DNA of 64,000 nt from Escherichia coli (GCF_016026235.1 NZ_CP065613.1); one strand, 5' to 3'. Counted from the stretch's first letter, positions 29,899 through 31,056 are shown. Program-made: numbers and translations. The notes: a model not told the origin generated them from the letters alone.

Positions 29899-30420
<522 letters not shown>

Positions 30421-30588
30421 GGGTAGAAATTAATCGCAACGCGCAGATTGCGAGCTGTATTCCACGAAATTTGTAAGGTTGTGAAGATAGCGTTTTTCAC
30501 CGGAACCAGGTTAACAAATCAGCGATTTCTCTGTTGCTGAGCATCCGGAGTTATTCGATGGTGATACTCCAATTACAGAGGATGTTTT

Positions 30589-31056
30589 ATGGACGCTACC
30601 CTTCCCTTTCTGATTTTGTACGCTTGTTTATCTGTCCTACTTTTTTTATGGGATGCAAAGCATGGCTTGTTACCTGACAGATTTACCTGCCCGTTACTCT
30701 GGTCAGGTCTTTTGTTCTCTCAGGTTTGTAATCCTGACGGTTTAGCCGATGCGTTATGGGGGGCGATTATTGGTTACGGCACATTCGCTGTCATTTACTG
30801 GGGGTATCGCATACTGCGTCATAAAGAAGGATTAGGCTATGGTGATGTGAAGTTTCTCGCCGCCCTTGGTGCCTGGCATACCTGGACCTTCTTGCCACGA
30901 CTGGTTTTCCTTGCTGCCTCATTCGCTTGCGGAGCCGTAGTTGTTGGTCTGCTCATGAGAGGAAAAGAGTCATTAAAAAACCCGCTGCCGTTTGGGCCAT
31001 TTCTGGCGGCTGCGGGTTTCGTTGTAGGTTGGGATAGTTTGCTGGCAGGCCGTTAA
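30589..31056 (+). CDS. gspO: prepilin-peptidase-like protein, GspO/HofD family, lacking the N-terminal ~70 residues of the full-length enzyme (155 aa; possible remnant)
   Basis: ORF ...[16 protein letters not shown]...[21 protein letters not shown]... matches the C-terminal membrane/aspartyl-protease half of type IV prepilin peptidases; GAGGA 7 nt upstream of ATG; no gspA-N genes present. Confidence 0.6.

What the first reader, a model, noticed from the sequence alone, without database searches (positions are those of the whole stretch)
30420..31056. Truncated gspO-like prepilin peptidase gene beside the S10 promoter; no gspA-O type II secretion cluster and no chiA
Between rpsJ and bfr there is only a 155-codon ORF homologous to the C-terminal half of GspO/HofD prepilin peptidase, starting abruptly at roughly residue 70 of the full-length enzyme. 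There is no chiA between bfd and tufA either. This looks like the scar of a lost, or never acquired, T2SS island. The remnant keeps a plausible RBS (GAGGA 7 nt upstream of ATG) and the region with the conserved aspartate-containing motifs (…KEGLGYGD…), so it may still be expressed as an N-terminally truncated membrane protein.
Basis: partly seen in the sequence, partly recalled or inferred. Interest (0 to 1): 0.45.

Follow-up and report, generated by a model that had tools for sequence, protein, structure and literature searches.

The report
Intact hopD prepilin peptidase gene
The 155-codon gene between rpsJ and bfr is an intact, conserved enterobacterial gene (hopD) for a short, peptidase-only prepilin peptidase, already annotated, and not a recent remnant of a deleted secretion island.

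Summary
Window 30589-31056 (+) is a 155-codon ORF with a complete Peptidase_A24 domain, lying between rpsJ and bfr. There are no gsp genes and no chiA.

The "truncated remnant" reading fails on the E. coli timescale. The ORF is only 41% identical to K-12 GspO. 151-161-aa homologues occur in at least 14 enterobacterial genera; every homologue whose flanks were examined lies between rpsJ and bfr, and in an alignment of 13 sampled members the start codon and both catalytic aspartates (D22, GYGD86) are conserved. dN/dS is 0.06-0.26, apart from 0.53 for one near-identical pair. RefSeq calls it "prepilin peptidase"; Salmonella annotations call it HopD.

E. coli has two old haplotypes here. 2252 of 5426 complete genomes carry hopD-bfr-bfd, and 3148 carry gspAB-gspC..O-bfr-bfd-chiA. 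The bfr/bfd alleles linked to hopD follow the species tree. Those linked to the secretion system fall outside it. So the window shows the ancestral state, and the K-12 block is an imported replacement.

In deep time hopD probably did descend from a full-length gspO/pilD-type gene next to bfr, but that is inferred.

The likely function is cleavage, without N-methylation, of the Ppd/Hof type IV pilins. No experiment confirming this was accessible. The finding is ordinary and already known.

The parts
30589..31056 (+). hopD coding sequence, 155 aa: a peptidase-only family A24 (GxGD) prepilin peptidase
   Evidence: ORF. Complete Pfam PF01478 domain. Annotated 'prepilin peptidase' in RefSeq. 151-161-aa homologues, several named 'leader peptidase HopD'. 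AlphaFold2 pLDDT 90.7 with six helices. Best solved-structure match is FlaK.
30578..30582 (+). Shine-Dalgarno-like GAGGA, 6 nt before the ATG
   Evidence: Sequence. GAGGA is also present in Salmonella at the same place; Raoultella has GGGG there instead.
30652..30654 (+). Codon for D22, the first catalytic aspartate (motif [10 protein letters not shown])
   Evidence: Invariant in 13 HopD sequences and in a 37-sequence alignment that includes PilD C-terminal domains. Aligns with the D of VIDFRTQLLPD in K-12 GspO.
30835..30846 (+). Codons for G83-Y84-G85-D86, the GxGD motif carrying the second catalytic aspartate
   Evidence: Invariant. The role of the two universally conserved aspartates is taken from PMC10191384.
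30388..30415 (-). S10 operon promoter: -10 TATAAT at 30388-30393 and -35-like TTGCGT at 30410-30415, with a 16-nt spacer. The homology break with the K-12 haplotype falls at 30394/30395, inside the spacer.
   Evidence: Sequence. Alignment with K-12 is 100% identical up to 30394 and then diverges, although the -35 hexamer is kept. The window's spacer resembles that of Salmonella. The promoter assignment is inferred from the sequence and from the known ~172-nt S10 leader.
30395..31928 (.). The hopD-bfr-bfd haplotype block, which is replaced in K-12-type genomes by gspAB-gspC..O-bfr-bfd-chiA
   Evidence: Left break. On the right, identity resumes at the tufA terminator AAAAAGGGCGCCGAAGCGCCCTTTT, 31929-31953.
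31053..31529 (-). bfr, hopD-linked allele; its stop codon overlaps the hopD stop codon (TTAA at 31053-31056)
   Evidence: dN is 0.026-0.030 to Salmonella and Raoultella Bfr but 0.095 to K-12 Bfr.
31602..31796 (-). bfd, hopD-linked allele
30975..31019 (-). Terminator-like hairpin followed by a U-run on the bfr strand, lying inside the hopD reading frame (codons for [14 protein letters not shown])
   Evidence: RNA fold of window:30960-31150:-. Coordinates. Termination there was not tested.

Best explanation
This is hopD, an intact and vertically inherited gene of Enterobacteriaceae. It encodes a roughly 155-residue inner-membrane aspartyl protease of family A24 (GxGD type). The protein consists of the peptidase domain only and lacks the N-terminal A24_N_bact methyltransferase module of PilD and PulO.

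The arrangement rpsJ-hopD-bfr-bfd-tufA is the ancestral enterobacterial state. This E. coli lineage never received the alternative block gspAB-gspC..O-bfr-bfd-chiA, which about 58% of E. coli (including K-12) carry as a horizontally acquired replacement of the whole segment.

Proposed mechanism (inferred, not shown): D22 and D86 sit at the ends of helices next to short loops, consistent with the cytoplasmic-face active site described for this family. There they would cleave the short leader peptide from class III signal peptides of the chromosomal type IV pilin-like proteins (PpdD, PpdA, PpdB, YgdB, PpdC). The new N-terminus would not be methylated. HopD would thereby supply the missing 'pilD' function of the ppdD-hofB-hofC / hofMNOPQ type IVa pilus and DNA-uptake-like machinery.

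Deep origin (inferred): hopD descends from a full-length gspO/pilD-type gene that sat next to bfr and lost its 5' part before the radiation of the hopD-bearing genera.
For: Identity and integrity:
- Complete PF01478 domain.
- The start Met, D22 and the GYGD86 motif are invariant in 13 HopD sequences. D22, G83, G85 and D86 are invariant in 37 sequences that include PilD domains.
- The AlphaFold2 model has pLDDT 90.7 and pTM 0.84. The best PDB fold match is the GxGD protease FlaK, followed by presenilin.

A conserved family, not a remnant:
- 151-161-aa homologues occur in Salmonella, Citrobacter, Enterobacter, Lelliottia, Raoultella, Kosakonia, Phytobacter, Kluyvera, Pluralibacter, Atlantibacter, Silvania, Intestinirhabdus and E. 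albertii.
- Wherever flanks were examined, the gene lies next to bfr/bfd, with rpsJ on the other side where the locus extends that far.
- The HopD clade has 100% bootstrap support and its internal order resembles the species tree.
- dN/dS is 0.16-0.26 in five of six E. coli pairs (0.53 in the closest pair, which differs at only 8 sites) and 0.06-0.16 against Salmonella.
- No N-terminal remnant lies upstream in 7 genera.
- In the scan of 1.84 billion representatives, only 11 clusters reach E<=1e-30. The next hits are mostly the C-terminal parts of 240-300-aa proteins.

The arrangement is ancestral:
- 2252 genomes are hopD-type and 3148 are gspO-bfr type; chiA is present in 3163.
- hopD-linked bfr+bfd alleles form one clade (100%) that tracks genera. 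T2SS-alpha-linked alleles from E. coli K-12, Enterobacter sp. C4G1 and an unnamed species fall outside it and group together (82% in the protein tree).
- The S10 promoter spacer of the window matches Salmonella, not K-12.
- Brandis et al. list bfd, bfr and hopD as the small insertion between the str and S10 operons in Salmonella (PMC6735719).

Function:
- K-12 has ppdD-hofB-hofC-(guaC)-coaE where Neptunomonas has pilB-pilC-pilD-coaE, so a pilD is missing at that site.
- In a Salmonella transposon screen, hopD mutants are listed together with hofQ, hofC and ppdA as putative hypercompetitive mutants (PMC2712085).
- hopD (ECs4188) was 2.4-2.7-fold regulated in O157:H7 on lettuce (PMC6891304).
- Peptidase-only prepilin peptidases such as TadV and FlaK are active enzymes (PMC10191384).
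Against: - None of the accessible literature contains a biochemical or genetic test of this protein's activity.
- The sister group of HopD is unresolved. It is 33-46% identical to GspO-alpha, PulO and PilD alike, and the deep nodes have 15-49% bootstrap support. Descent from gspO-alpha therefore rests on position and orientation only.
- Some lineages carry damaged copies: Shigella flexneri has 95-97-aa forms, and one E. coli variant of 147 aa occurs on 110 contigs. The gene is therefore dispensable.
- The consensus scan found no sigma-70 promoter for hopD. The upstream spacer is not conserved between E. coli and Salmonella.
- 3640 of 5426 E. coli genomes also carry pppA, which could do the same job.
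- The trees are neighbour-joining trees on 150-153 columns.
Confidence: 0.8

Rival explanations
1. Recent deletion scar: an E. coli ancestor of this strain carried the K-12-type gspA-O and chiA genes. A deletion removed them together with the 5' third of gspO, leaving a gene fragment.
For: The ORF aligns only with the C-terminal 60% of K-12 GspO. It sits in the same place and orientation as gspO, next to bfr.
Against: - It is only 41% identical in protein to K-12 GspO, and no DNA similarity is detectable by megablast beyond 30394.
- bfr and bfd differ by about 20% in DNA between the two arrangements.
- The same 155-aa gene with the same start codon is present in E. albertii, Salmonella and other genera.
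- There are no upstream remnants.
- dN/dS is mostly well below 1.
Confidence: 0.02
2. Ancient relic without function: hopD is what remained when an early enterobacterium lost T2SS-alpha. It persists as an expressed but useless or nearly neutral membrane protein, perhaps retained only because the bfr terminator and stop codon overlap it.
For: - It shows positional homology with gspO.
- Cedecea has a parallel short form that is sister to GspO-alpha.
- The HopD clade has a long branch.
- Broken copies occur in Shigella and some E. coli.
- The bfr terminator-like hairpin lies inside hopD.
- The Hof/Ppd system is reported as non-functional under standard laboratory culture conditions (PMC2649431).
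Against: - dN/dS is 0.06-0.16 over saturated synonymous divergence (dS >1.8) between E. coli and Salmonella.
- The start codon, both catalytic aspartates, the GYGD motif and NPLPFGP are invariant across the 13 sampled members.
- A neutral ORF would not stay open over the saturated synonymous divergence (dS >1.8) that separates these genera.
- Constraint from the bfr terminator covers only about 45 nt.
Confidence: 0.08
3. Functional protease with another job: HopD is active, but its substrates are not the Ppd/Hof pilins. They could be the T2SS-beta pseudopilins, or an unrelated membrane or regulatory function.
For: - Conservation and intact catalytic residues show selection but do not identify the substrate.
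- hopD is not linked to any pilin gene.
- All four regulators MarA, SoxS, Rob and RamA gave ChIP signal in the rpsJ<>hopD spacer in Salmonella (PMC10268841), although that may simply reflect the strong S10 promoter.
Against: - Every characterised A24A enzyme cleaves class III signal peptides (PMC10191384).
- From my own knowledge, not checked here: Salmonella lacks a T2SS but keeps hopD along with the ppd/hof genes.
- hopD shares a mutant class with hofQ, hofC and ppdA (PMC2712085).
- T2SS-beta has its own PppA, which is required for secretion (PMC3707838).
Confidence: 0.1

Closest known systems
Leader peptidase HopD of Salmonella enterica (STM3442-type) and its homologues in other Enterobacteriaceae
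   Same: 155 aa and 65-67% identical. The start position and both catalytic aspartates are the same, and so is the synteny rpsJ-hopD-bfr-bfd-tufA, including the overlap with the bfr stop codon.
   Different: Nothing structural. The E. coli copy is simply the E. coli orthologue, present in 41.5% of complete genomes.
GspO (HofD/HopD/YheC) of the E. coli K-12 T2SS-alpha cluster
   Same: Family A24 peptidase domain with the same two aspartate motifs. It sits immediately next to bfr in the same convergent orientation. It also lacks a detectable A24_N_bact domain.
   Different: - 225 aa, with 72-79 extra N-terminal residues.
- Only 38-41% identical.
- It is the last gene of the gspC-O operon.
- It belongs to a separate clade whose members in other genera are 254-260 aa and do carry A24_N_bact.
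PilD/XcpA-type bifunctional prepilin peptidase/N-methyltransferase (for example Neptunomonas pilB-pilC-pilD-coaE)
   Same: The peptidase domain is 39-48% identical, with shared motifs EG(L/M)GYGD.K and NPLPFGP.
   Different: PilD is about 290 aa. It has about 130 N-terminal residues carrying the Cys-rich methylase module (PF06750). It is encoded in a pilus operon. HopD has none of these features.
TadV/CpaA/FppA (Flp pilus) and archaeal FlaK: peptidase-only GxGD proteases
   Same: The architecture is the same: a peptidase domain alone with no methylase domain (PMC10191384). FlaK is the best solved-structure match to the HopD model.
   Different: HopD is not linked to a tad/flp or archaellum locus. 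Its closest sequence relatives are C-terminal domains of PilD/GspO-type proteins, so the domain loss looks independent. TadV sequences were not included in the trees.
Cedecea 158-aa A24 peptidase at the same rpsJ-bfr position
   Same: A short form at the same locus and in the same orientation.
   Different: It is only 38-40% identical to E. coli HopD but 50-53% identical to GspO-alpha, and it is sister to the GspO-alpha clade (75% bootstrap). This is probably a separate and more recent truncation.

Membership tests
Peptidase family A24A (type 4 prepilin peptidase, GxGD aspartyl protease) | Peptidase_A24 domain (PF01478 / IPR000045) above the curated threshold | tested here: met
   80 bits against a 26.5-bit cut-off, covering profile positions 2-102 of 104.
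Peptidase family A24A (type 4 prepilin peptidase, GxGD aspartyl protease) | Two conserved catalytic aspartates, the second in a GxGD motif | tested here: met
   D22 and G83-Y-G-D86 are invariant. They lie 64 residues apart, which from my recollection (not checked here) matches the TcpJ spacing. Their role is taken from PMC10191384.
Peptidase family A24A (type 4 prepilin peptidase, GxGD aspartyl protease) | Polytopic membrane fold of the GxGD proteases | tested here: met
   The AlphaFold2 model has pLDDT 90.7 and six helices. The top Foldseek PDB hit is FlaK 3s0x_B (probability 1.00, TM 0.62, though the Foldseek E-value is only 0.2), followed by presenilin.
Peptidase family A24A (type 4 prepilin peptidase, GxGD aspartyl protease) | Cleaves the leader peptide of class III signal peptides | not testable with these tools
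   This needs a cleavage assay. Only indirect genetic and expression data were found.
Bifunctional PilD/PulO-type prepilin peptidase/N-methyltransferase | N-terminal A24_N_bact module (PF06750 / IPR010627) with conserved cysteines | tested here: not met
   No PF06750 hit at E<=1. The protein begins 103-131 residues downstream of the start of full-length relatives. Database names calling it a 'bifunctional ... methyl transferase' are therefore unsupported.
GspO of the T2SS-alpha (gspC-O) cluster | Encoded as the last gene of a gspC-M operon | tested here: not met
   No gsp gene lies between rpsJ and bfr.
GspO of the T2SS-alpha (gspC-O) cluster | Falls in the GspO-alpha clade | tested here: not met
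   The GspO-alpha clade (92% bootstrap) excludes HopD. HopD forms its own 100% clade whose sister group is unresolved.
HopD family of Enterobacteriaceae | 151-161 aa, conserved start, located between the S10 promoter and the 3' end of bfr | tested here: met
TadV/CpaA/FppA Flp prepilin peptidases | Peptidase-only architecture | tested here: met
   The definition is taken from PMC10191384.
TadV/CpaA/FppA Flp prepilin peptidases | Encoded in a tad/flp/cpa locus | tested here: not met
   The neighbours are rpsJ and bfr wherever flanks were examined.
TadV/CpaA/FppA Flp prepilin peptidases | Phylogenetic placement with TadV-type sequences | not tested
   No TadV, CpaA or FppA sequence was available for the trees. 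The nearest hits are mostly 240-300-aa proteins matched in their C-terminal part.

The most novel reading that the evidence does not exclude
hopD may be the surviving 3' half of a T2SS-alpha gspO. On this reading it was left behind when an early enterobacterium lost the secretion system. It has since been kept as a peptidase-only enzyme because it is the prepilin peptidase of the Ppd/Hof type IVa pilus.

The T2SS-alpha-bfr-bfd-chiA block would then persist as an ancient alternative haplotype. It moves between genera (Escherichia, Enterobacter and others) by homologous replacement of the whole str-S10 spacer. One crossover point lies inside the S10 promoter spacer.

This would be a loss of the methylase domain independent of TadV, and a polymorphism spanning several genera next to the most highly expressed operons of the cell.
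Probability: 0.4. Interest if true: 0.4.

Novelty: already known. Interest (0 to 1): 0.2.

Why it matters
The gene itself matters little. It is annotated, and its position between the str and S10 operons has been described (PMC6735719). Three practical points follow.

1. Comparisons that use K-12 as the reference mislabel hopD as a 'truncated gspO'. Some database names wrongly call it a bifunctional methyltransferase.

2. Pan-genome studies will score bfr and bfd as 'accessory' genes linked to gsp and chiA, because the two haplotypes carry alleles about 20% apart. This pattern appears in PMC11390585, and it can create spurious associations.

3. If HopD is the prepilin peptidase of the enterobacterial Ppd/Hof pilus, then hopD-type strains such as O157:H7, and Salmonella, make unmethylated pilins. 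That would be a convenient natural test of what pilin N-methylation is for, a question the review PMC10191384 calls unresolved.

Tried and rejected
- NCBIfam scan of the ORF gave no family.
- phmmer against PDB sequences gave no hit at E<=1.
- Rfam scan of 29000-33500 gave no hit at E<=0.01, so the S10 leader could not be confirmed that way.
- The consensus promoter scan found neither the S10 promoter nor a hopD promoter. Its only hit was an antisense site inside the ORF, at chance level.
- tblastn with the N-terminal parts of K-12 GspO, two full-length GspO-alpha proteins, PulO and GspM was run against the spacer upstream of hopD in seven genera. Only chance-level hits appeared (E>=0.036 in a 2.9-kb database).
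- The genome-contig scan returned many genera but no Escherichia or Salmonella loci. Those were obtained through other tools instead.
- I first thought HopD might be closer to PilD than to GspO, based on the 42-48% best-segment identities. Over the whole domain the identities are equal (about 39%) and the neighbour-joining trees do not resolve the sister group. That claim was dropped.
- I considered that K-12 GspO might be the true orthologue of HopD with an N-terminal extension. This was rejected because its relatives at the same locus in other genera carry a genuine A24_N_bact domain.
- The paper most likely to contain a functional test could not be read. It is Luna Rico et al. 2019, Mol Microbiol 111:732, on reconstitution of the EHEC type IVa pilus using 'gspO'. 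From memory it used EHEC DNA. O157:H7 carries only hopD at this locus, so that 'gspO' may be this gene. This is a lead, not evidence.
- The JCI 2007 paper on the haemorrhagic coli pilus was also not held.

Full report
**1. What is in the window**

The ORF runs from 30589 to 31056 on the + strand. It starts with ATG, encodes 155 amino acids and is preceded by GAGGA six bases upstream. Its neighbours are:
- rpsJ, 29899-30210 (-)
- bfr, 31053-31529 (-)
- bfd, 31602-31796 (-)
- tufA, from 31979 (-)

The hopD and bfr stop codons overlap in the tetranucleotide TTAA. No gsp gene lies between rpsJ and bfr. The bfd-tufA spacer is 182 nt, so there is no chiA.

The window is E. coli. The 850 bases from 30211 to 31060 are 100% identical to strain 600468, where RefSeq annotates the ORF as 'prepilin peptidase' WP_000340171.1.

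**2. Is it a truncated gspO?**

Against K-12 GspO (225 aa), ORF residues 8-145 align with GspO residues 80-215, but at only 41% identity. At the DNA level, megablast finds nothing in K-12 beyond position 30394. E. coli alleles of one gene normally differ by a few per cent, so this is not the K-12 gene with its 5' end removed.

The Pfam Peptidase_A24 domain is complete (profile 2-102 of 104, 80 bits). K-12 GspO itself has no detectable N-terminal A24_N_bact domain.

The 378-nt spacer upstream of the ORF is mostly S10 leader and promoter. It has stop codons in all three forward frames and gives only chance-level tblastn hits to GspO N-termini. The same holds in six other genera tested with full-length GspO-alpha and PulO N-termini.

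**3. A conserved full-length family**

A search of 5.8 billion proteins returns 151-161-aa homologues from Salmonella, Citrobacter, Intestinirhabdus, Kosakonia, Lelliottia, Enterobacter, Raoultella and Phytobacter. Several are named 'leader peptidase HopD', and all carry only PF01478. E. albertii has a 155-aa copy in a cluster whose representative is 88% identical to the window protein.

In an alignment of 13 members, the following are invariant:
- the initiator Met
- D22
- G83-Y-G-D86
- NPLPFGP

D22, G83, G85 and D86 remain invariant when PilD C-terminal domains and distant relatives are added, giving 37 sequences.

Synteny is conserved. Salmonella and Raoultella have exactly rpsJ-hopD-bfr-bfd-tufA. 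All 18 enterobacterial loci returned by the genome scan have the gene next to bfr/bfd, and next to rpsJ where the locus reaches that far.

Selection is purifying. dN/dS is 0.16-0.26 in five of six E. coli pairs (0.53 in the closest pair, which differs at only 8 sites). It is 0.06-0.16 against Salmonella, where synonymous sites are saturated.

In the exhaustive scan of 1.84 billion representatives, only 11 clusters reach E<=1e-30. After that gap, the hits are mostly 240-300-aa proteins matched in their C-terminal part.

**4. Two haplotypes in E. coli, and which is older**

The counts among 5426 complete genomes are:

| Feature | Genomes |
|---|---|
| hopD arrangement | 2252 |
| K-12 gspO-bfr junction | 3148 |
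| chiA | 3163 |

The hopD and gspO-bfr types together account for 5400 genomes. The two types differ over the whole segment.
- Left boundary: identity is perfect up to 30394, one base beyond the S10 -10 hexamer, and is then lost. The -35 hexamer TTGCGT is nevertheless kept at the same distance.
- Right boundary: identity resumes at the tufA terminator, from 31929.

In between, bfr and bfd are only 77-80% identical in DNA. Window-type Bfr is much closer to Salmonella and Raoultella Bfr (dN 0.026-0.030) than to K-12 Bfr (dN 0.095). K-12 Bfr is about equally far from all of them.

A bfr+bfd tree of 22 loci gives a clear picture:
- All hopD-linked alleles fall in one clade (100% bootstrap in DNA) whose internal order follows the genera. 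Escherichia, Salmonella and Citrobacter group at 97%; the Enterobacter, Kosakonia and Kluyvera groups each have 99-100% support and Raoultella 84%.
- The alleles linked to T2SS-alpha come from E. coli K-12, Enterobacter sp. C4G1 and an unnamed species. They fall outside that clade and group together in the protein tree (82%).

The window's S10 promoter spacer resembles that of Salmonella and not that of K-12.

The hopD block is therefore inherited vertically. The T2SS-alpha-bfr-bfd-chiA block is an old, separate lineage that replaces it by recombination in the conserved flanks.

Published work fits this picture. Brandis et al. describe bfd, bfr and hopD as the small insertion between the str and S10 operons in Salmonella (PMC6735719). 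A mastitis pan-genome study lists bfr and bfd as 'accessory' genes that travel with gsp and chiA (PMC11390585). That is what two divergent allele classes would produce.

**5. Deep origin**

T2SS-alpha genomes of other genera have gspH..M-gspO-bfr-bfd-GH18 chitinase-tufA. Their gspO is 258-259 aa and carries both A24_N_bact and Peptidase_A24. hopD occupies exactly the position and orientation of that gspO.

Cedecea has a 158-aa short form at the same place. It is 50-53% identical to GspO-alpha and is sister to the GspO-alpha clade (75% bootstrap). The main HopD clade (100%) sits on a long branch whose attachment point is unresolved, with 15-49% support and 33-46% identity to GspO-alpha, PulO and PilD alike.

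A methylase domain cannot be regained from nothing. The economical reading is that hopD descends from a full-length gspO/pilD-type gene next to bfr, and that this gene lost its 5' part before the hopD-bearing genera diverged. Cedecea would then show a second, younger example of the same route.

This is an inference from position. In that deep sense the 'scar' idea may be right, but the gene has since been maintained as a functional unit.

**6. What it probably does**

The AlphaFold2 model is confident (pLDDT 90.7, pTM 0.84). It has six helices, and D22 and D86 lie at helix ends beside short loops. The best solved-structure match is the GxGD protease FlaK, which also consists of a peptidase domain only, followed by presenilin.

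According to the review PMC10191384, prepilin peptidases have the following properties:
- They have an N-terminal methylase module and a C-terminal peptidase module.
- Two universally conserved aspartates at the membrane-cytoplasm interface do the cleavage.
- Enzymes without the methylase module exist, TadV being one.

HopD meets the peptidase criteria and lacks the methylase module.

E. coli has ppdD-hofB-hofC-(guaC)-coaE where Neptunomonas has pilB-pilC-pilD-coaE. The enterobacterial cluster therefore lacks its own pilD.

In a Salmonella transposon screen in mice, hopD, hofQ, hofC and ppdA mutants are listed together as putative hypercompetitive mutants (PMC2712085). hopD (ECs4188) was 2.4-2.7-fold regulated in O157:H7 on lettuce (PMC6891304).

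I therefore propose that HopD removes the leader peptide from PpdD and the minor pilins PpdA, PpdB, YgdB and PpdC, without N-methylation. The domain, motifs, fold, conservation and synteny are shown. The substrate and activity are inferred.

Four points count against this proposal:
- No accessible paper contains a direct assay.
- Damaged copies exist in Shigella flexneri and in one E. coli lineage.
- 3640 genomes also carry pppA.
- No recognisable promoter was found.

**7. Verdict**

The sequence observation is correct. The interpretation as a remnant of a lost island is wrong for E. coli history and is at best a deep-time inference.

The object is the known gene hopD, in the ancestral enterobacterial arrangement. 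Interest is low. The modestly new points are these:
- There are two haplotypes, each with its own bfr/bfd alleles.
- One crossover point lies inside the S10 promoter spacer.
- Cedecea shows an independent short form.

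Noticed in passing
window 30395-31928; compare L001:20185-36860: The whole str-S10 spacer exists as two deeply diverged haplotypes in E. coli. Their bfr and bfd alleles are only 77-80% identical in DNA. The left crossover lies inside the S10 promoter spacer: the -10 hexamer is shared and the -35 hexamer is kept, but the 16-nt spacer is different. The right crossover lies at the tufA terminator.
   Followed up: yes
window 30975-31019 (- strand): A terminator-like hairpin followed by a U-run lies downstream of the bfr stop codon, inside the hopD reading frame. 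It is built from the codons for the conserved [14 protein letters not shown] motif. hopD and bfr also share the overlapping stop tetranucleotide TTAA (31053-31056). The two convergent transcripts must therefore overlap.
   Followed up: partly
window 30434-30453: A 7-bp inverted repeat, TCGCAACGCGCAGATTGCGA, is followed on the minus strand by TTAATTTCTA. It lies just upstream of the S10 -35 region. It is terminator-like and could shield the S10 promoter from antisense read-through. It is not conserved in Salmonella or Raoultella.
   Followed up: partly
L093:3001-3477 (Cedecea lapagei): A 158-aa A24 peptidase lies at the same rpsJ-bfr position. It is much closer to GspO-alpha (50-53% identity) than to HopD (38-40%) and is sister to the GspO-alpha clade. 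This looks like an independent truncation of gspO.
   Followed up: partly
L001:32273-32950 (K-12 gspO) compared with L091:4001-4777 and L094:4001-4780: K-12 GspO (225 aa) has no detectable A24_N_bact domain. Its relatives at the same locus in other genera are 258-259 aa and have the domain. The E. coli T2SS-alpha peptidase is therefore itself N-terminally reduced.
   Followed up: partly
proteins P0041, P0049 (Shigella flexneri, 95-97 aa); P0124 (E. coli, 147 aa, on 110 contigs): Shortened hopD products occur in Shigella flexneri and in one E. coli lineage. The gene is therefore dispensable and decays in some lineages.
   Followed up: no
protein P0132 (cluster of P0006): Some database records name this protein 'bifunctional prepilin peptidase HopD: leader peptidase; methyl transferase', although it has no methyltransferase domain. 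The name was probably transferred from PilD-type enzymes.
   Followed up: no
proteins P0170 and P0103 (Enterobacter bugandensis); P0175 and P0071 (Kosakonia): Both a HopD-type short protein and a GspO-alpha-clade full-length protein are recorded within Enterobacter bugandensis and within the genus Kosakonia. The hopD versus T2SS-alpha dimorphism may therefore exist in several genera, not only in E. coli. The loci of P0170 and P0175 were not checked.
   Followed up: no
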